NCBI GenBank assembly: GCA_946636615.1
Contig: CAMPBE010000003.1
Span: 15,928 to 79,927, forward strand
DNA: 64,000 bases
From: an uncultured bacterium
GTDB lineage: Bacteria > Cyanobacteriota > Vampirovibrionia > Gastranaerophilales > Gastranaerophilaceae
Direction: 5' to 3'
The notes beneath the pieces were generated by a model that saw nothing but the letters and a program-made list of their open reading frames with translations, made no database searches and was not told the origin of the DNA. Both the position numbers and the translations under genes were made by a program. This document shows, piece after piece, positions 12,662-46,630 of the stretch. The first letter of the stretch is position 1; the number at the start of each line of letters is the position of its first letter.

Positions 12662-14572
12662 TTAGCTGAATGCTTTGAATGATCTTTCTACGTTTTTATT
12701 TATAACTTCTTTTATTGATTCGTATTCGGTTTGTAATGCATTGTGTTCTGTGTCGAGTTTTTTTAAATCTTGATCATATTTTTTGTCTTTATTTTCAATT
12801 TCAGTAACCGTATTTTTATATTGAACTTCTGCAATTGCTATTGCAACTTCATCATCTTGAGATACAATGTCAACTGCACTCGTGTATGCTTTAGAAACCC
12901 AATCGAATTGTCCCATGTCCGGATATTTTGCAGAACCGTCTTCAAAGAATGTCGCTTGTTCTAATGTTACTATTCCGTGTTCTAAAGCGAACTTCAACCA
13001 TTCAGAATTGTTCAAAAGATTTTCTTCAAGTTCTACAAAATTGCTTTTGTCAATTTCTTCCGTATGACCAACTTTTGCACCGCCTCCCATACGATACCAC
13101 AGATTTGTGTACCATTGAAATTTAGCATCTTTTTCATCAGGAACTTCTTTTGTAGGCTCACCAAGTTTCAATATAGCATCTTGTACTTTTTGCGCTAATT
13201 CTGCAAAGCTATCTATCCATTCATTTACTTTTTGGCATAAGGCATTGTATCCAGTTTGCCAATCGTTATGTTTTGCTTCATAATTAGTATATAGTTGATT
13301 TCTGTATGTTTCGAAATTTGCTTTGATTTCTGCATCTAGTTTTGTCTGTAATCCTGATAAATTGTCGTACATTAGATTCCACCTATTAACTAAATCTGAA
13401 TTGCTACAGCCACCTGTTGTTGATGTTATGCTATATCTGCCAGAATTTAATTCTGTAGTTCTGCTGCCAACACATCCATTTTTGTCTAATGTGTTAACAA
13501 CATCACAGTATAAATCTATTATTGATTGTTTTGTGTCTTGAACACATGTATATTCTGAAAAAGTATTTAGTGCATTACCAAGAGCCGAAGATGTTTCGGT
13601 ATAACCAAATTGTAAATTAGTTAAAGAAACATAATCCTCTTTTGGATTATTTGCAGTAATTGTAATATTTTGTGATGAATTTTGAATTGTAGAATTGCCG
13701 TTATAAATGCCATCTCTACCCCATAGTAGTGCAGCTAGGTTGTGTTCCATATGACCTATACCATCATGTGAGTCTCCAACTGCACTATGACATTGTTGTC
13801 CGTTATATGCAGTTACTAATGATGCGAAGTCTGGTGATGAAGGTTTTACAGGTTCAGTCCAAGTTGGTTCGTCACCTATTGCATATGTTGGTGGATTTGT
13901 GATTGTATTTACATATTTGCCAGTTAAACCACTTGATCTTATTAAATCATATATTCCTGATGTAGTATCGTTTATTGTGGTGCCGATACCTGAAGTTAGA
14001 CTGTTATAATCTGCAAGAGTGTGTGGAATAGTGGCAAAATTATTGTATATTGTACTTGCAACTGAATTAATTCTGTTCAAATATTCAGAAAGTTTATTTT
14101 GTACATCTCCGACTGAGGTAACATCTGTTGCTGTTAAATATTCAGCCCATTCATCGCCTAATATTGTTTGCAATTGATCTGCGTATTCATCGTTATCTAC
14201 AGTAACAGTATTAACACCGTTCAATTTCATGTATTCAAGGTAATCTCCATTTGCAGCCATATATGTTTTTATATCAGAACCTGATAATAAAATTTGACCG
14301 TTTGTGTTTACCATTGCATATTGATTTTTTAAATCACCATAGCCCAATAAAACATTTGCTGTCAACGGAGTATATGTTTTATCTCCGTTTGCATCATATT
14401 GACCGAATACCAATTTTTTTGAAGCCAAAGCATCCATGTACTTTTGGCTTGCTTCTGTTGATTGAGTCGCAAGTCTTAATTTAGAATTTGTAATTGTCTG
14501 CGCACGAAATTCATTGTTAGTCAATCGACTTGTAATACTTAGTAATCGCGCTTGTGATGCGGACATTCCCAT
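12662..14572 (-). CDS. Unknown 636-aa protein, paralog 1 of a pair with conserved helical termini and a variable core
   Basis: Long ORF. The start is placed at MGMSASQARLL (AAAGGA upstream) by analogy with paralog 36362..38473. Both termini align with that paralog (see findings). No signal peptide was seen. Confidence 0.85.
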   Translation of the reverse strand: MGMSASQARLLSITSRLTNNEFRAQTITNSKLRLATQSTEASQKYMDALASKKLVFGQYDANGDKTYTPLTANVLLGYGDLKNQYAMVNTNGQILLSGSDIKTYMAANGDYLEYMKLNGVNTVTVDNDEYADQLQTILGDEWAEYLTATDVTSVGDVQNKLSEYLNRINSVASTIYNNFATIPHTLADYNSLTSGIGTTINDTTSGIYDLIRSSGLTGKYVNTITNPPTYAIGDEPTWTEPVKPSSPDFASLVTAYNGQQCHSAVGDSHDGIGHMEHNLAALLWGRDGIYNGNSTIQNSSQNITITANNPKEDYVSLTNLQFGYTETSSALGNALNTFSEYTCVQDTKQSIIDLYCDVVNTLDKNGCVGSRTTELNSGRYSITSTTGGCSNSDLVNRWNLMYDNLSGLQTKLDAEIKANFETYRNQLYTNYEAKHNDWQTGYNALCQKVNEWIDSFAELAQKVQDAILKLGEPTKEVPDEKDAKFQWYTNLWYRMGGGAKVGHTEEIDKSNFVELEENLLNNSEWLKFALEHGIVTLEQATFFEDGSAKYPDMGQFDWVSKAYTSAVDIVSQDDEVAIAIAEVQYKNTVTEIENKDKKYDQDLKKLDTEHNALQTEYESIKEVINKNVERSFKAFS

Positions 14573-14672
14573 AATACATGAATCCTTTCTCATGTTGTAT
14601 TACGGTATATGTGGGGCAATTCTTTAATACTTTTAAGTAATTGTAAAGTTATGTTAATAATAAAAATTTTTG

Positions 14673-14701: not shown

Positions 14702-15352
14702 TTATATTGAAACTGTTAATGTTTCTAATTTTAATTCTATAGGATTTTCTTCTATTATTTCTGTTTCTAAATCCGATGCATTAACAATCTGTCCTGCGGG
14801 TGCCATTTTATATTCCGCTTTGGCTTTTGGAATGTTTGTTTTTGGAGCTTGTGCTGTATATGTTCCGGATTTTACCTTTGCAACTATAGGATCAGGAGTT
14901 GTTTTTTGTCTCTTTACATCTGCAGTAATTTTTCTAACAAAATTTCTTGTTTCTGCATATGGTGGAATTGAGTTATTATATTTTTTTACATTTCCAGGGC
15001 CTGCATTATATGCTGCAAGCGCTAATTCTACGGAACCAAACATGTTATACATTTTTTTGTAATACATAATTCCGCCTTTAATATTGTCATTTAATGAATA
15101 TGGGTTTAATCCCATTCTTCTTGCAGTAGACGGCATCAATTGAAATACTCCCACTGCACCGTGTGAACTTCTTGCTTCATGTCTAAATCCTGACTCAGTA
15201 CGTGCAATACTAAGAGCTATAGCAGGATCTACACCCATTGAAATAGCGTGTTTTACTATTTTTGCTTTTACAGCGTTCACATCTGTTGCTTGCGCAGGCG
15301 CATTAACAAATATTGCACACAGCAGTGTAAAAGTTAATAATAGTTTCTTCAA
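14702..15352 (-). CDS. Secreted lytic transglycosylase (SLT domain)
   Basis: 216-aa ORF with a TTG start after AGAGGA and a signal peptide. It carries the SLT catalytic motif ESGFRHEA...GVFQLMPSTA...AYNAGPGNV. Confidence 0.85.
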   Translation of the reverse strand: MKKLLLTFTLLCAIFVNAPAQATDVNAVKAKIVKHAISMGVDPAIALSIARTESGFRHEARSSHGAVGVFQLMPSTARRMGLNPYSLNDNIKGGIMYYKKMYNMFGSVELALAAYNAGPGNVKKYNNSIPPYAETRNFVRKITADVKRQKTTPDPIVAKVKSGTYTAQAPKTNIPKAKAEYKMAPAGQIVNASDLETEIIEENPIELKLETLTVSI

Positions 15353-35886: not shown

Positions 35887-36189
35887 ATGAAAAAGATTTT
35901 ATTAGCGTTGGCAGTTTTGTTATTTACCACAGTAGCAGCAAGGGCAGAGTTTTTAGGTGGTTTTATTTATAACGGAGCAACAACTCCCGGCGGCGGTTAT
36001 ACTGCAGCAATTGCATCAAAACAAGGTTCTGCTACATGTAAAAATGTATGGTATATTGTTAGTGTAGGCGATTGTAGCGTCAAAGCGGCAATGAAAAACG
36101 GCGGTATCCGTTCTTTAGCAGGTTATGATGTACACAGAGAAAATATCTTAGGCTTTCAAACAATAACAGTAAAAGCTTGGGGAAATTAG
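35887..36189 (+). CDS. TRL-like small secreted protein
   Basis: 100-aa ORF after AAGGAG, with a signal peptide. The pattern G.IY....P.....K.G.A.C......VGD.S...A...GGI......D matches my recollection of the TRL-like family. Confidence 0.6.
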   Translation: MKKILLALAVLLFTTVAARAEFLGGFIYNGATTPGGGYTAAIASKQGSATCKNVWYIVSVGDCSVKAAMKNGGIRSLAGYDVHRENILGFQTITVKAWGN

Positions 36190-36209
36190 TTGAGTAATAA
36201 AATATTAAA

Positions 36210-36242
36210 AAGAGGGGAATCTTATAGGTTCCTCTTTTTTTT
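36210..36242 (+). terminator. Intrinsic terminator after the TRL-like gene
   Basis: GAGGGGAA/TTCCTC hairpin followed by T8. Confidence 0.65.
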
Positions 36243-36290
36243 GTGGTTTAAATTTCCTGTTACATATCTTAACAATAATCTGTAAATTAT

Positions 36291-36318
36291 TAAAGTTTTT
36301 ATAAAAATATGCCGATAG
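36291..36318 (+). promoter_or_regulatory. Sigma-28 (FliA/SigD)-type promoter candidate
   Basis: TAAAGTTT (36291-36298), a 12-nt spacer, then GCCGATAG (36311-36318), 43 nt upstream of the ATG at 36362. The textbook consensus is TAAAGTTT-N11-GCCGATAA. Confidence 0.55.
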
Positions 36319-36361
36319 AGCATAGTGAAAGTTACTAAGGAAATCGAAAGGAAACATCGTC

Positions 36362-38473
36362 ATGGGAATGGCGGCAGGACAAGCAAGATTATTATCAATA
36401 ACATCTCGTATGTCTGATAACGAGCTAAGAGCTCAGATTATCAACAATAATAAGATGCGTCTTGCTGCTGAAAGCTCTCAAGCAAGCGAAGCTTATGTTG
36501 CAGCCTTGAATGAAGCACAGTTAATGTTTACTAATTACGATATTGATAACAATGCAACTTATCAAAATTTAACTTATAATGCGTTAACTTCATTTAATCC
36601 TTATAACAATCAATATGCTTTGATAAATTCATCAGGCAATGTATTGTTGTCAGAAAAGGATGCTGAGAACTATAGAAAATCCGGTGGAAATCTTGATGCG
36701 TTCTTGGGTATGTATGGGCTGGATTATACAACTACATATTTTGATCAATTGCCTGAGAATGTAGAATTTGAAGGCTTTGAAGGTTTGACGGTCGGTAGGG
36801 ATATTCTTGAATATATATATTCAGGCAATGTTCCTGAAGGTACAGAGTTTGATCTAGGTAAGATTGGCAAGATAAATCTTCATCCAACAGGAAGTTCTGC
36901 TATATCTTACATTGGTACTGCAAATTCGGAAGCTGTTTACGATTATGATAAATATTTGCAGCAATATACCGAAACAAAGAATAAATATCTTGGTTATATT
37001 ATGCAAGTTATGAAAGAAGAATTTAAAACATTGGTAAAAGATGGAGATTTCAAAGATTCTGAAGGTAAAGCTCTTGACTCTATAACTGATATAAAAACAT
37101 ATATAAATAGTGTTATTGCAGAAGCAGATGCCGAAGAATCAACAGCACGAACAAGTACATCAAAATTCGAAACTAATGTTGTTGATGCGTTATCTAAGTT
37201 GATAACTAATATGAATGCTGAAAAATATACTAAAAATTCTGAAAGTGCAACTAACTTTTTTATAGATATTGAAAATTTGATAAAGAATAATGCAGGAAGC
37301 ATTGCAAAAGATGAATTTACAAGTGATAATTACAGATATATGACATCAGATGGCAATGACTTGTATATTGTTACAAAAGACGAGACAAATCCGGTTATTG
37401 AATTAAAAGTAGATAATAAAGGAAATTTATATTCTATAAGTGAAACAGAAACAACAGGAGAGAACGGTCAAACAAATTACACTTCATCTGGATATAACGA
37501 CTCTGTATTTAGTGAAGGTGTCACTCCCAAGGTATCATCAGGCGATAAGGAGGGTTGGAGTAAAAATCCTTGGGTAAGTCCAGCTGTTTTCTCAACAGCT
37601 GAGGAAGATACCGTAAATATCGACGGCATGATATTACATCAAGTAAAAAATAAAGAAGTTGATTTTAGTTTATATACAATCAACGATATTGATAACATGG
37701 CAGGTATTGCTAAACAAGTCATTGCAACAATTGAATCTTCATTAGACACTTGTTGGGATTCGACTGCGAAATATTGGTCAGATGGTGCTGAAGATTCAGC
37801 ATTAAAAGCTGCTTATGTAGCTTATCAAGATGCGGCTAAGAGTTTAAGCGAAACAATATTTGGAAAAGACGTACCTGAAAAGTATGACGATTTAGATGAT
37901 ATATACTCACTTTATAATAATTATAATTTTTCCGAACTACCATTTTCTGTTGATTTTAAGAAAGTTTTTGTGAATATCATAATGGATCAGTTATTGGATA
38001 CATATGGTGAACCTAATTATGCTTGGATAGACCAATCTTCATTGCCTACATCAACAAGTTCTTATAACACAAATGGTCAGGCTAAGGCTCAATGGTATGA
38101 AAATCTGTTTAATCGTATAAAATCCGGCGGATATCAGGTTCTTCAAGACGGTCTTGCTTCAAGCAAAGAGTGGATACAATTCGCATTTGAAAGCGGTATT
38201 GTAACAATGGAACAAATAGATTCTCTTGGTAATTGGCAGCCGTTGATATATTCAAATTGTAGTGATATTACATCGCAAACAAATGAAAAAATGATTGCAA
38301 AAGCTGAAGCTGAATACAGAAATGCAATGAATAAGATTGAAAACAAAGATAAACGATATGATTTGGAATTGAAAAATATTGATACAGAACACAATTCATT
38401 GATGGCAGAATATGAATCAATAAAGACTGCAATAGACAAAAACGTAGAGCGAACATTTAAACTGTACTCATAG
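36362..38473 (+). CDS. Unknown 703-aa protein, paralog 2 of the conserved-termini/variable-core pair
   Basis: Long ORF with AAAGGA upstream. Its N-terminal ~115 aa and C-terminal ~150 aa align with 12662..14572, while the centre is unalignable. No signal peptide was seen. Confidence 0.88.
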   Translation: MGMAAGQARLLSITSRMSDNELRAQIINNNKMRLAAESSQASEAYVAALNEAQLMFTNYDIDNNATYQNLTYNALTSFNPYNNQYALINSSGNVLLSEKDAENYRKSGGNLDAFLGMYGLDYTTTYFDQLPENVEFEGFEGLTVGRDILEYIYSGNVPEGTEFDLGKIGKINLHPTGSSAISYIGTANSEAVYDYDKYLQQYTETKNKYLGYIMQVMKEEFKTLVKDGDFKDSEGKALDSITDIKTYINSVIAEADAEESTARTSTSKFETNVVDALSKLITNMNAEKYTKNSESATNFFIDIENLIKNNAGSIAKDEFTSDNYRYMTSDGNDLYIVTKDETNPVIELKVDNKGNLYSISETETTGENGQTNYTSSGYNDSVFSEGVTPKVSSGDKEGWSKNPWVSPAVFSTAEEDTVNIDGMILHQVKNKEVDFSLYTINDIDNMAGIAKQVIATIESSLDTCWDSTAKYWSDGAEDSALKAAYVAYQDAAKSLSETIFGKDVPEKYDDLDDIYSLYNNYNFSELPFSVDFKKVFVNIIMDQLLDTYGEPNYAWIDQSSLPTSTSSYNTNGQAKAQWYENLFNRIKSGGYQVLQDGLASSKEWIQFAFESGIVTMEQIDSLGNWQPLIYSNCSDITSQTNEKMIAKAEAEYRNAMNKIENKDKRYDLELKNIDTEHNSLMAEYESIKTAIDKNVERTFKLYS

Positions 38474-45718: not shown

Positions 45719-46630
45719 CTATCCGACATAACCGGACAATACTTCTTGTCCCAACACGGAGAATCTCATCTTCTTTAATGCCCTCAATTCTGTTTGGCGT
45801 ATGCATTCTTTTGTTACACCATAAATGTTTCCAATTTCTTCAAGTGTCATTTTTGCATTATCGTTAAGCCCATATCTCATCCTGACAACTTCTTGTTCTC
45901 GTTCCTTTAATGTTGATAGAACGTTCATAATATCTGAACGTAAGTTTTCAAATTCTACTTGTTCTGTTGCAGAGGCTTTTTCGTCTTCAATTATGTCTGC
46001 GACATTCATTTCTTTTCCATCTGCATTTTCTAAACCACTTTCAATAGAGATAGTTTTTGAGTATGCGTTTAGAAATGTATCAATTTTATCAACTGTTATA
46101 TTCATTTTCTTCGCAACATCTTCTGTTTTAACCTGACAATTTGATTCTCTTTCCATTTCGGTTTTTAATTTTGAAAATTTTGAAAGTGTCTCTTGGATAT
46201 AAACCGGTATTTTCATGCAATGTGATTGCTCTGATATTGCTTTGAACATTGCTTGTTTTATCCACCAGCTTGCATAAGTGGCAAATTTGTATCCTAATTT
46301 ATAATTAAACTTTTCTGCTGCAATCATCAAACCTACATTTCCCTCTTGAATTAAATCAATCAATGGTAAATGTGACATGTGAATTGCTTTTTTTGCAATT
46401 GTAATGACAAGTCTTAAATTTGATTTTATTAGTTTTTGTCTGGCTTCTTCATCGCCTTCTTTAGCTTTTTTGGCTAATTCTTTTTCTTCCTCAAGGCTCA
46501 AAGAGGAATAGTCTGAAATTTCTCTAATGTAGGCAGCTAATACAGTGTCATTAGAAGCTTCTACAATTTCATTTTTTGCGGGGTTTGAGAATTCTGTCTT
46601 TCTCATCTTAATAAACGAATTTTTTGTCAT
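45719..46630 (-). CDS. RpoD-family RNA polymerase sigma factor
   Basis: 303 aa. Regions 1.2 to 4 are recognisable: NLRLVITIAKK, FATYASWWIKQAM and TLEEIGNIYGVTKECIRQTELRALKKMR. Confidence 0.9.
   Translation of the reverse strand: MTKNSFIKMRKTEFSNPAKNEIVEASNDTVLAAYIREISDYSSLSLEEEKELAKKAKEGDEEARQKLIKSNLRLVITIAKKAIHMSHLPLIDLIQEGNVGLMIAAEKFNYKLGYKFATYASWWIKQAMFKAISEQSHCMKIPVYIQETLSKFSKLKTEMERESNCQVKTEDVAKKMNITVDKIDTFLNAYSKTISIESGLENADGKEMNVADIIEDEKASATEQVEFENLRSDIMNVLSTLKEREQEVVRMRYGLNDNAKMTLEEIGNIYGVTKECIRQTELRALKKMRFSVLGQEVLSGYVG

What the first reader, a model, noticed from the sequence alone, without database searches (positions are those of the whole stretch)
36291..36318. Near-consensus sigma-28 (FliA/SigD)-type promoter in front of paralog 2
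TAAAGTTT-N12-GCCGATAG lies 43 nt upstream of the ATG. The textbook motility-sigma consensus is TAAAGTTT-N11-GCCGATAA (TAAA-N15-GCCGATAT in Bacillus). The GC-rich GCCGATA heptamer is rare in this AT-rich window, and I found it in an intergenic promoter position only here. Sigma-28 regulons classically contain flagellin and late motility or chemotaxis genes, so this independently links the unknown protein to a motility or surface-filament programme. Upstream of paralog 1 (14594-14640, minus strand) there is only a weak resemblance, TAAAGAAT-N13-CCGTAATA.
Basis: partly seen in the sequence, partly recalled or inferred. Interest (0 to 1): 0.65.

Follow-up and report, generated by a model that had tools for sequence, protein, structure and literature searches.

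The report
Conserved sigma-28-type promoter, gut Melainabacteria
The flagged motif is a real promoter of the type normally used for late flagellar genes, kept almost unchanged in about 70 species of gut non-photosynthetic cyanobacteria, where it drives orphan proteins rather than recognisable flagellar genes; the matching sigma factor gene could not be looked for here.

Summary
TAAAGTTT-N12-GCCGATAG is at 36291-36318, 43 nt before the ATG of a 703-aa orphan gene. The full two-box pattern occurs once, against 0.03 expected. GCCGATA alone is not rare (4 copies, 3.1 expected).

The window comes from a gut melainabacterium (Gastranaerophilales). In 79 species-level genomes, 74 of 76 genes of this protein family carry TAAAG, 16 nt (rarely 15), then CCG(A/T)(T/A)A, ending 27-57 nt before the ATG. 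The boxes are conserved and the spacer is not.

A matrix built from these sites hits almost only this family and a 46-aa gene in 1.5 Mb. On the window's own contig it hits paralog 2 (32 bits), paralog 1 (25 bits, so not "weak") and a 51-aa gene.

A metagenome scan shows the same promoter before several other orphan families. It also picked up, as a positive control, true flagellin genes of an unrelated bacterium with the same spacing.

A sigma-70 or ECF reading fits the conservation pattern poorly.

Two things were not shown. No RNA data map the transcription start. The link to motility is not supported: the protein shows no sequence or fold similarity to flagellin.

The parts
36207..36249 (+). 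Intrinsic terminator of the upstream TRL-like gene (35887-36189). It insulates paralog 2 from read-through, so the gene needs its own promoter.
   Evidence: stem-loop 36207-36241 (16 pairs) followed by a T run; 1 found against 0.1 expected; the upstream ORF matches PF13146 TRL.
36259..36274 (+). Two phased upstream hexamers, GTTACA (36259-36264, about -67) and TTAACA (36269-36274, about -57). These are degenerate copies of the GTAACA pair seen in orthologues. They are a candidate activator site or UP-like element; no function has been shown.
   Evidence: strict GTAACA starts only at -68..-66 and -58..-55 relative to the predicted +1, in 46 of 76 family promoters. Searches give the sequence. 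Paralog 1 has TTAACA and TTTACA at about -66 and -56.
36289..36298 (+). -35 element ATTAAAGTTT (core TAAAG at 36291-36295).
   Evidence: TAAAG is found in 74 of 76 family promoters. The two columns 5' of it were not forced by the search and are A in 63/69 and T in 67/69. Published -35 boxes are TAAAGTTT (E. coli, PMC2859248) and TCTAAAG (P. aeruginosa fliC, PMC12784957).
36299..36310 (+). A/T-rich 12-nt spacer between the two octamers, giving 16 nt between TAAAG and CCG. Its sequence is not conserved.
   Evidence: the TAAAG-to-CCG spacer is 16 nt in 68 promoters and 15 nt in 3; information content is 0.0-0.2 bits at central spacer columns; true flagellin promoters in locus L100 have the same 16-nt spacing.
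36311..36318 (+). -10 element GCCGATAG, a 7/8 match to the consensus GCCGATAA.
   Evidence: -10 hexamers in 74 family promoters are CCGATA 51, CCGTTA 10, CCGTAA 5, CCGACA 4 and others 4. G is in 49/69 sites before CCG, and A in 68/69 sites at the sixth base of the hexamer. E. coli aer uses GCCGACAT.
36324..36327 (+). Predicted transcription start (inferred, not measured).
   Evidence: Inferred by register with P. aeruginosa fliC, where GCCGATAA occupies -15 to -8 (PMC12784957). No public RNA run resolves it.
36326..36361 (+). Conserved 5' UTR of about 36 nt. It contains GTGAAAGTTACTAAGGAAA (AAGGAAA at 36337-36343) and the Shine-Dalgarno AAGGA (36348-36352, 9 nt before the ATG).
   Evidence: Searches show the alignment; no consensus RNA structure was predicted; 45% of family UTRs have two or more GGA against 6.7% of random genomic stretches of the same length.
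36362..38473 (+). Paralog 2, a 703-aa orphan protein (P0001) with invariant helical N- and C-termini and a variable middle.
   Evidence: no Pfam hit; 795 homologue clusters; model pLDDT 80.8; helices 2-56 and 643-702. Searches find no similarity to flagellin; a metatranscriptome contig is identical to 37988-38193.
14598..14628 (-). Promoter of paralog 1, of the same class: ATTAAAG (14628-14622), N16, CCGTAATA (14605-14598). It is preceded by a terminator-like hairpin with a T run (read by eye at about 14697-14672) and by TTAACA and TTTACA at about -66 and -56.
   Evidence: sequence; 25.1 bits on the family matrix.
12662..14572 (-). Paralog 1 (636 aa from the conserved MGMSASQARLL start at 14572).
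   Evidence: termini are 43-45% identical to paralog 2. One search shows the start codon.

Best explanation
This is a functional promoter of the sigma-28 (FliA/SigD/WhiG) class that drives monocistronic transcription of paralog 2.

Shown: an upstream terminator isolates the gene. An ATTAAAG box and a gCCGATA box lie 16 nt apart and end 43 nt before the ATG. This architecture, including two phased GTAACA-like hexamers near -67 and -57 and a conserved 5' UTR, is kept in about 70 species whose proteins have diverged to 34-68% identity. The same motif marks paralog 1 and a 51-aa gene on the same contig, and several other orphan gene families in related metagenome contigs. It therefore defines a regulon.

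Inferred: a FliA-family sigma factor of the organism binds TAAAG through region 4 and CCGATA through regions 2-3. It would start transcription near 36324-36327 and give a leader of about 36 nt. Because most Gastranaerophilales keep only a flagellar export gate and rod, the regulon probably couples these orphan proteins to that reduced machine rather than to swimming.
For: - **Match to consensus:** 8/8 at the -35 box and 7/8 at the -10 box against TAAAGTTT-n11-GCCGATAA (consensus from PMC2859248). The exact bipartite core is found once against 0.03 expected.
- **Conservation:** 48 of 72 family genes have TAAA-N14-17-[GC]CGATA 39-57 nt from the ATG. Nearly all the rest have CCGTTA, CCGACA or CCGTAA variants. 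In total 74 of 76 have TAAAG-N15/16-[CT]CG. Pairwise identity is 0.89 in the boxes, 0.76 in box columns not forced by the search, and 0.49 in the spacer.
- **Specificity:** hits of 12 bits or more in 1.5 Mb number 87, of which 71 precede the family, 15 precede a 46-aa gene and 1 is other. Shuffled DNA gives 3. On the window's own contig the hits score 32.0, 25.1 and 21.5 bits, with no site between about 8 and 21 bits.
- **Positive control:** the same pattern retrieved locus L100, which holds four canonical flagellins plus FlgK, FlgL and CsrA. Three of its flagellin genes carry TAAA(G/A)-N16-CCGATA.
- **Insulation:** a terminator lies upstream.
- **Lineage context:** Gastranaerophilales have full or partial flagellar gene sets. 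A FliJ, FliK-like and FlgE-like operon lies 5.6 kb from the family gene in L018.
- **Transcription:** one metatranscriptome contig matches the gene exactly.
Against: - No FliA-family gene was found. The only sigma factor in the window (45719-46630, minus strand) is RpoD-like, with region 1.2. None occurs in the about 18 kb of the contig read beyond the window's end or in 199 related loci.
- No TSS data exist.
- The spacer is one base longer than the enteric and Bacillus consensus.
- In 18 of 69 sites the base after CCG is T rather than the A that is flipped out at -11 in solved sigma-28 complexes (PMC12784957).
- The downstream genes are not recognisable flagellar genes.
- Only 1 of 79 genome loci has a flagellar gene within 10 kb.
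Confidence: 0.75

Rival explanations
1. The two boxes are read by an alternative sigma factor that is not a FliA orthologue, such as a lineage-specific group 3 or ECF-like factor. Its specificity would only resemble sigma-28 and it would have no flagellar connection.
For: No FliA gene could be shown. The regulon consists of orphan genes. The spacer is one base longer than the consensus. CCGT variants (CCGTTA, CCGTAA; 18 of 69 sites have T after CCG) resemble the CGT of ECF -10 boxes.
Against: The ECF -35 hallmark AAC is absent from the invariant TTAAAG. Both boxes match the sigma-28 consensus almost base for base. The same N16 architecture precedes true flagellins in L100. The lineage is reported to carry flagellar genes.
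Confidence: 0.12
2. The housekeeping RpoD-type sigma uses TTAACA (36269-36274) as the -35 box and TAAAGT (36291-36296) as the -10 box. The CCGATA box would then be an operator or leader-RNA element downstream of the start.
For: One search lists TTAACA-16-TAAAGT as a 9/12 sigma-70-like match. GTAACA-like hexamers are conserved 16-17 nt upstream of TAAAG. An RpoD-like sigma is encoded in the window.
Against: The base after TAAAG, which would be the critical final T of a -10 hexamer, is T in only 26 of 69 orthologues. The invariant G is a non-consensus position for a sigma-70 -10 box. Strict GTAACA is absent from 30 of 76 promoters, whereas TAAAG and CCG are in 74 of 76. This reading leaves unexplained why CCG stays at a fixed 16 nt. 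Sigma-70-like matches in the region are no more frequent than in shuffles (4 against 1.9 +/- 1.4).
Confidence: 0.06
3. The conserved boxes are binding sites for a transcription factor (repressor or activator), not sigma contact elements.
For: GTAAC and GTTAC motifs recur at about -67, about -57 and in the leader, which suggests a DNA-binding regulator acts here.
Against: That describes the GTAACA elements, not TAAAG and CCGATA. The spacing of those two boxes, their asymmetry and their distance to the start codon are those of a promoter. No better promoter exists in the 120 nt between terminator and ATG.
Confidence: 0.05
4. The motif is a chance match with no function.
For: With one mismatch allowed the pattern is expected about once per window. 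GCCGATA alone is at chance frequency.
Against: The exact match is expected 0.03 times. The motif is conserved in 74 of 76 orthologous upstream regions at a fixed position. The matrix finds 87 hits against 3 in shuffled sequence.
Confidence: 0.01

Closest known systems
Class 3 (late) flagellar promoters of E. coli and Salmonella read by FliA, consensus TAAAGTTT-N11-GCCGATAA (Koo et al. 2009, as cited in PMC2859248)
   Same: The -35 octamer is identical and the -10 octamer matches 7/8. The promoter sits on a monocistronic late-type gene with a short leader. Variant -10 boxes such as GCCGACAT (aer) are also found among the melainabacterial orthologues. The aer promoter gives a precedent for an activator site upstream of a sigma-28 promoter (CRP at -49.5).
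   Different: The spacer is 12 nt, not 11, in 68 of 71 family promoters. T replaces A after CCG in about a quarter of sites. Phased GTAACA hexamers lie at about -67 and -57. The downstream genes are orphans, not flagellin, motor or chemotaxis genes. The cognate sigma factor was not identified here.
SigD-dependent hag (flagellin) promoters of Firmicute-type late flagellar loci, illustrated here by metagenome locus L100
   Same: L100 flagellin genes carry TAAA(G/A)-N16-CCGATA, the same register as the window's promoter. Their leaders contain GGA motifs, and the family leaders are also GGA-rich.
   Different: L100 encodes recognisable flagellins, FlgK, FlgL and CsrA. No CsrA or flagellin was found in any melainabacterial locus examined. 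No hairpin structure is conserved in the family leader.
Sigma-28 regulon of Chlamydia trachomatis (hctB and tsp; PMC12282069)
   Same: A sigma-28-class promoter is used outside motility, driving non-flagellar genes.
   Different: The chlamydial regulon has two genes, shown by ChIP-seq. Here the motif precedes many gene families, including multi-copy ones, and nothing has been tested experimentally.
Flagellin (Pfam PF00669 and PF00700), as a comparison for the downstream gene
   Same: Conserved helical N- and C-termini, a variable central part, no signal peptide noticed on reading the N-terminus (no predictor was run), and a sigma-28-type promoter.
   Different: No Pfam hit. hhalign probability is 0.4% against a flagellin profile. 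The best Foldseek PDB E-value is 0.039, and flagellins appear only among non-significant hits.

Membership tests
Sigma-28 (FliA/SigD/WhiG)-dependent promoter class | -35 element TAAA(G), extended form TAAAGTTT | tested here: met
   TAAAGTTT at 36291-36298, an 8/8 match. TAAAG is present in 74 of 76 orthologous promoters.
Sigma-28 (FliA/SigD/WhiG)-dependent promoter class | -10 element GCCGATAA, with CCGA as its core | tested here: met
   GCCGATAG at 36311-36318, a 7/8 match. Orthologues have CCGATA in 51 of 74 and CCG or TCG in all 74 anchored sites.
Sigma-28 (FliA/SigD/WhiG)-dependent promoter class | Spacing of about 11 nt between the octamers (15 nt between TAAAG and CCG) | tested here: met
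   The spacing is 12 nt (16 nt from TAAAG to CCG), one more than the consensus. It is the lineage norm, 68 of 71, and is identical in bona fide flagellin promoters of L100. PMC12784957 states that spacer length is not strictly conserved.
Sigma-28 (FliA/SigD/WhiG)-dependent promoter class | Conservation of both boxes upstream of orthologues | tested here: met
   Pairwise identity is 0.89 in the boxes and 0.49 in the spacer.
Sigma-28 (FliA/SigD/WhiG)-dependent promoter class | A cognate FliA-family sigma factor (NCBIfam TIGR02479) encoded in the genome | not testable with these tools
No FliA was found in the window, in about 18 kb more of the contig or in 199 loci, using phmmer with E. coli FliA. 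The window's sigma factor is RpoD-like.
Sigma-28 (FliA/SigD/WhiG)-dependent promoter class | Transcript start 6-9 nt downstream of the -10 box | not testable with these tools
   The only RNA run holding the gene has one internal 206-nt contig. Runs for an orthologue were DNA-like or uninformative.
Sigma-28 (FliA/SigD/WhiG)-dependent promoter class | Downstream genes belong to the late flagellar or chemotaxis set | tested here: not met
   No flagellar family hits for paralogs 1 and 2 or for ten other genes behind the motif. hhalign against flagellin gives 0.4%. This is typical of the class but not defining; Chlamydia is an exception.
Sigma-70 (RpoD) housekeeping promoter | TTGACA-17(+/-1)-TATAAT with conserved A at position 2 and T at position 6 of the -10 hexamer | tested here: not met
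   TTAACA-16-TAAAGT matches 9/12 in the window. The final T is present in only 26 of 69 orthologues, while the non-consensus G is invariant.
ECF sigma promoter | -35 box containing AAC and -10 box containing CGT, 16-17 nt apart | tested here: not met
   The -35 box is TTAAAG, without AAC, in all sites. CGT occurs in only 18 of 69 -10 boxes.
Flagellin (PF00669/PF00700), for the downstream gene | Flagellin_N and Flagellin_C domains, D0/D1 fold | tested here: not met
   No Pfam hit at E <= 0.01. hhalign probability 0.4%. No Foldseek PDB hit with E <= 0.001.

The most novel reading that the evidence does not exclude
Gut Melainabacteria may have kept the flagellar late-gene switch (a FliA-type sigma with its TAAAG-N16-CCGATA promoters) after losing filament, hook and motor, and rewired it to a large lineage-specific set of orphan proteins. 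That set would include the flagellin-shaped family in this window, several tiny proteins of 46-77 aa, and giant proteins with protease-like domains. These proteins would be the cargo, or the outer structure, of the residual flagellar type III export gate. On this reading the promoter marks a new secretion or surface-appendage regulon.
Probability: 0.3. Interest if true: 0.8.

Novelty: new member of a known kind. Interest (0 to 1): 0.5.

Why it matters
Sigma-28 promoters are textbook elements, so the site itself is not a new kind of thing. Its value is as a handle. No paper in the searched library mentions FliA or any sigma factor in Melainabacteria. Here one sharply defined motif links at least seven unannotated gene families in uncultured gut bacteria that are reported to retain only a fragment of the flagellum. 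A genome-wide scan with the matrix derived here would list the whole regulon. That would make testable what the leftover flagellar export machine of these human and animal gut bacteria is used for.

Tried and rejected
- **Looking for FliA another way.** I ran phmmer with E. coli FliA and 37 other flagellar or chemotaxis proteins plus CsrA over all ORFs of 79 genome loci, 120 metagenome loci and the window. The only sigma hits were RpoD-like. I also walked the window's own 104-kb contig. The about 18 kb gained beyond the window's end contained cell-wall, ribosomal and metabolic genes, no FliA, and one further promoter of this class.
- **Literature.** No paper mentions FliA or sigma factors in Melainabacteria. 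The supplements of PMC3787301 and PMC4040986 do not list fliA.
- **TSS from public RNA.** One metatranscriptome holds only an internal 206-nt contig. Runs for the CAG:967 orthologue cover the upstream region as well and behave like DNA.
- **Conserved RNA structure in the leader.** RNAalifold predicts no pairs. A 5'-terminal GUGA-AAG-UUAC hairpin that I saw by eye is not supported by covariation.
- **CsrA control of the leader.** This is suggested by GGA enrichment and by the paralog-1 hairpin ACATGA-GAAAGGAT-TCATGT, which resembles the L100 flagellin leaders. However, the predicted start would truncate that hairpin, and no CsrA gene was found in melainabacterial loci. It stays a lead.
- **Flagellin homology of the product.** Rejected.
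- **FlgM identity of the small co-regulated proteins.** No Pfam hit.

Full report
**Observation**

TAAAGTTT lies at 36291-36298, a 12-nt A/T spacer follows, and GCCGATAG lies at 36311-36318. The ATG of a 703-aa ORF is at 36362, 43 nt further on.

One supporting argument needs correcting. GCCGATA alone is not rare in this 32% G+C window: 4 copies against 3.1 expected. It is, however, the only copy outside a long ORF. The bipartite core TAAAG-N16-CCGATA is the improbable feature: 1 match against 0.03 expected, reached in 3 of 100 shuffles. With one mismatch allowed the expectation rises to about one per window. A single window therefore cannot settle the matter, and comparison with relatives is needed.

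**Source organism**

Homologues of the downstream protein come from MAGs labelled Candidatus Gastranaerophilales or Melainabacteria, including MEL.A1 and 'Clostridium sp.' CAG:768 and CAG:967. The window is positions 15928-79927 of a 104-kb gut-metagenome scaffold.

**Conservation**

A scan of one genome per species returned 79 loci that carry family members.

- Of 72 genes with the MGMAxxQARLL start, 48 have TAAA-N14-17-[GC]CGATA ending 39-57 nt before the ATG.
- Nearly all the others have the same TTAAAG box with CCGTTA, CCGACA or CCGTAA.
- With a slightly wider N-terminal pattern, 74 of 76 genes have TAAAG-N15/16-[CT]CG within 140 nt.
- The TAAAG-to-CCG distance is 16 nt in 68 promoters and 15 nt in 3.
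- Columns that my anchor did not force are also conserved: A in 63/69 and T in 67/69 before TAAAG, G in 49/69 before CCG, A in 68/69 at the last hexamer position, and C in 59/69 three bases later.
- Central spacer columns carry 0.0-0.2 bits.
- Pairwise identity is 0.89 in the boxes, 0.76 in the unforced box columns and 0.49 in the A/T-biased spacer.

The proteins themselves are only 34-68% identical to the window's copy. The boxes are therefore under selection.

**Specificity**

A 32-column matrix built from 69 sites gives 87 hits of 12 bits or more in 1.5 Mb on both strands, against 3 in shuffled sequence. Of these, 71 precede family genes, 15 precede a conserved 46-aa gene (MYEDLKNEKIIVEI...YCEFMKGVILNTSGLN) and one is a borderline hit.

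On the window's own contig there are three strong hits and no site between about 8 and 21 bits:

- paralog 2 at 32.0 bits;
- paralog 1 at 25.1 bits;
- a site at 21.5 bits in front of a 51-aa gene, about 19 kb beyond the window's end.

It too follows a terminator-like hairpin with a T run, which I read by eye.

**Wider regulon and positive control**

I scanned metagenome contigs for TGTAACA-N8-22-TTAAAG-N16-CCGATA. In the A/T-rich contigs the downstream genes were:

- the same family (20 loci);
- a shorter related family starting MG[ML]AASQARFL.LTARK;
- families of 69-77 aa (DMEDLMLDYGEMTSF...), 57 aa and 51 aa, the last being the family of the gene on the window's contig;
- several large orphans.

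Ten representatives have no Pfam assignment, apart from one match above the Pfam cut-off (a calpain-type protease domain) and sub-threshold matches to a metalloprotease family, EF-hand and one other family in the large proteins.

One hit, L100 (54% G+C, a different organism), is a classical late flagellar locus with four flagellins, FlgK, FlgL and CsrA. Three of its flagellin genes carry TAAA(G/A)-N16-CCGATA. The register found in Melainabacteria is therefore used by genuine flagellin promoters elsewhere. The one-base difference from the enteric consensus TAAAGTTT-n11-GCCGATAA (PMC2859248) is not an argument against the class. PMC12784957 also notes that spacer length is not fixed.

**Anatomy in the window**

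- A strong intrinsic terminator (36207-36241 plus a T run) ends the upstream TRL-like gene.
- Next come GTTACA (36259) and TTAACA (36269). In orthologues strict GTAACA starts only at -68..-66 and -58..-55 relative to the predicted start, in 46 of 76 promoters. Paralog 1 has TTAACA and TTTACA in the same phase. These look like an activator or UP-type element. [quoted passage not shown]
- By register with P. aeruginosa fliC, where GCCGATAA occupies -15 to -8, the start is predicted at 36324-36327.
- The resulting leader of about 36 nt (GTGAAAGTTACTAAGGAAATCGAAAGGAAACATCGTC) is itself conserved. It is rich in GGA: 45% of family leaders have two or more, against 6.7% of random stretches. It has no conserved secondary structure.

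**What could not be shown**

The only sigma factor in the window (45719-46630, minus strand) has region 1.2 and scores best with RpoD, RpoS and SigA models. phmmer with E. coli FliA found nothing else in the window, in about 18 kb more of the contig or in 199 fetched loci. Those loci sample only about 1% of each genome, so this says nothing about absence. An earlier, unchecked note of this scan states that the lineage encodes a matching FliA. I could not test that.
- *The transcription start.* The one metatranscriptome that holds the gene has only an internal 206-nt contig identical to 37988-38193. Runs found for an orthologue were uninformative.

**Rivals**

- *Sigma-70 reading.* TTAACA-16-TAAAGT scores 9/12. 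It fails on conservation. The would-be final T of the -10 hexamer is present in only 26 of 69 orthologues, the invariant G is off-consensus, and the reading leaves the fixed CCG box unexplained.
- *ECF reading.* There is no AAC in the -35 box.
- *A non-FliA sigma with convergent specificity.* This remains possible until fliA is found.

**Link to motility**

Published surveys report that about a quarter of Gastranaerophilales have complete flagellar sets. The rest retain FlhA, FlhB, FliP, FliR, FliI, FliJ, FliE and the rod proteins, but not flagellin, hook or motor. I saw one such remnant, a FliJ, FliK-like and FlgE-like operon, 5.6 kb from the family gene in L018 and again in L086. It was the only flagellar gene within 10 kb in 79 loci.

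The protein behind the promoter has long terminal helices (2-56 and 643-702; model pLDDT 80.8). It has no Pfam hit, no significant PDB fold match (best E = 0.039) and 0.4% hhalign probability against flagellins.

The promoter therefore links the gene to a flagellar-type regulatory programme. It does not show a role in motility or in a filament. Chlamydia, where sigma-28 drives only hctB and tsp (PMC12282069), shows that this class of promoter can serve non-flagellar genes.

**Verdict**

The promoter call is well supported by conservation and specificity, but the sigma factor and the start site remain unverified. The site is a new member of a known kind. Its interest lies in the orphan regulon it marks.

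Noticed in passing
L207:6350-6571 (same contig as the window, about 19 kb beyond its end): A third promoter of the same class (ATTAAAGATTCTTCATGAATGTTCCGATA, 21.5 bits) drives a 51-aa basic protein, MLKKISYPSCNICDSVVFILRGARKRRNMAQLSAKRVNADAGIEIGLRAVK. Homologues behind the same promoter occur in four metagenome loci (L115, L133, L139, L180).
   Followed up: partly
L013, L015, L023, L039, L056, L062 and about 15 other genome loci, 8-10 kb from the family gene on the opposite strand: A conserved 46-aa acidic protein (MYEDLKNEKIIVEITNLVEKVEKFEEDIDAYCEFMKGVILNTSGLN) has the same TTGTAACA...TTAAAG-N16-CCG promoter with weaker -10 boxes. It has no Pfam hit and was not found in the window.
   Followed up: partly
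window 36259-36274 and 14657-14642 (minus strand); orthologues in L001-L079: GTAACA-like hexamers are phase-locked at about -67 and -57 upstream of the sigma-28-type boxes. The complementary GTTAC recurs in the conserved leader (AAGTTACTAAGG). This may be the site of an unknown regulator.
   Followed up: partly
window 14597-14578 (minus strand): The paralog-1 leader can form ACATGA-GAAAGGAT-TCATGT, a hairpin that presents the Shine-Dalgarno GGA in its loop. It resembles the GGGAG-AAAGGAT-CTCCC hairpins in the flagellin leaders of L100, which sit next to csrA. The predicted start would clip its 5' arm, and no csrA was found in melainabacterial loci.
   Followed up: partly
L100 (bioreactor metagenome contig, 54% G+C): A late flagellar locus of an unrelated bacterium holds four tandem flagellin genes, FlgK, FlgL and CsrA. 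Three of the flagellin genes have TAAA(G/A)-N16-CCGATA promoters, and three flagellin leaders show CsrA-type GGA hairpins.
   Followed up: partly
L105:2685-8315, L111:283-1878, L129:760-2970, L157: Large orphan proteins (532 to 1877 aa) sit behind the same promoter type in A/T-rich metagenome contigs. One has a calpain-like cysteine protease match (27.8 bits, cut-off 23.8). One has a sub-threshold match to a zinc-metalloprotease family. One has EF-hand-like motifs.
   Followed up: partly
L018:17809-20912 and L086:7734-10837: A four-gene operon (272-aa unknown protein, FliJ, FliK-like, 278-aa FlgE/F/G-like) is present. The 278-aa protein is at least 81% identical across the 120 best-matching clusters, unusually conserved for a hook or rod protein. 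One member is labelled Brachyspira in NCBI.
   Followed up: partly
window 45719-46630 (minus strand): A 303-aa RpoD/SigA-like sigma factor with regions 1.2, 2, 3 and 4 is the only sigma factor in the window. It lies beside mnmA and a thioredoxin-like gene.
   Followed up: partly
window 14702-15352 (minus strand): The SLT-domain protein upstream of paralog 1 scores best against NCBIfam 'flagellar assembly lytic transglycosylase' (BB0259 type, E = 1.3e-27). The score is far below the cut-off and covers only the SLT domain. A terminator separates it from paralog 1.
   Followed up: no
window 37988-38193: A gut metatranscriptome run (X4) contains a 206-nt contig identical to this stretch inside paralog 2. 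This is weak evidence that the gene is transcribed in vivo.
   Followed up: partly
L081:8238-8828: In CAG:768 a PilZ-domain protein (196 aa) lies two genes upstream of the family member, downstream of secY.
   Followed up: no
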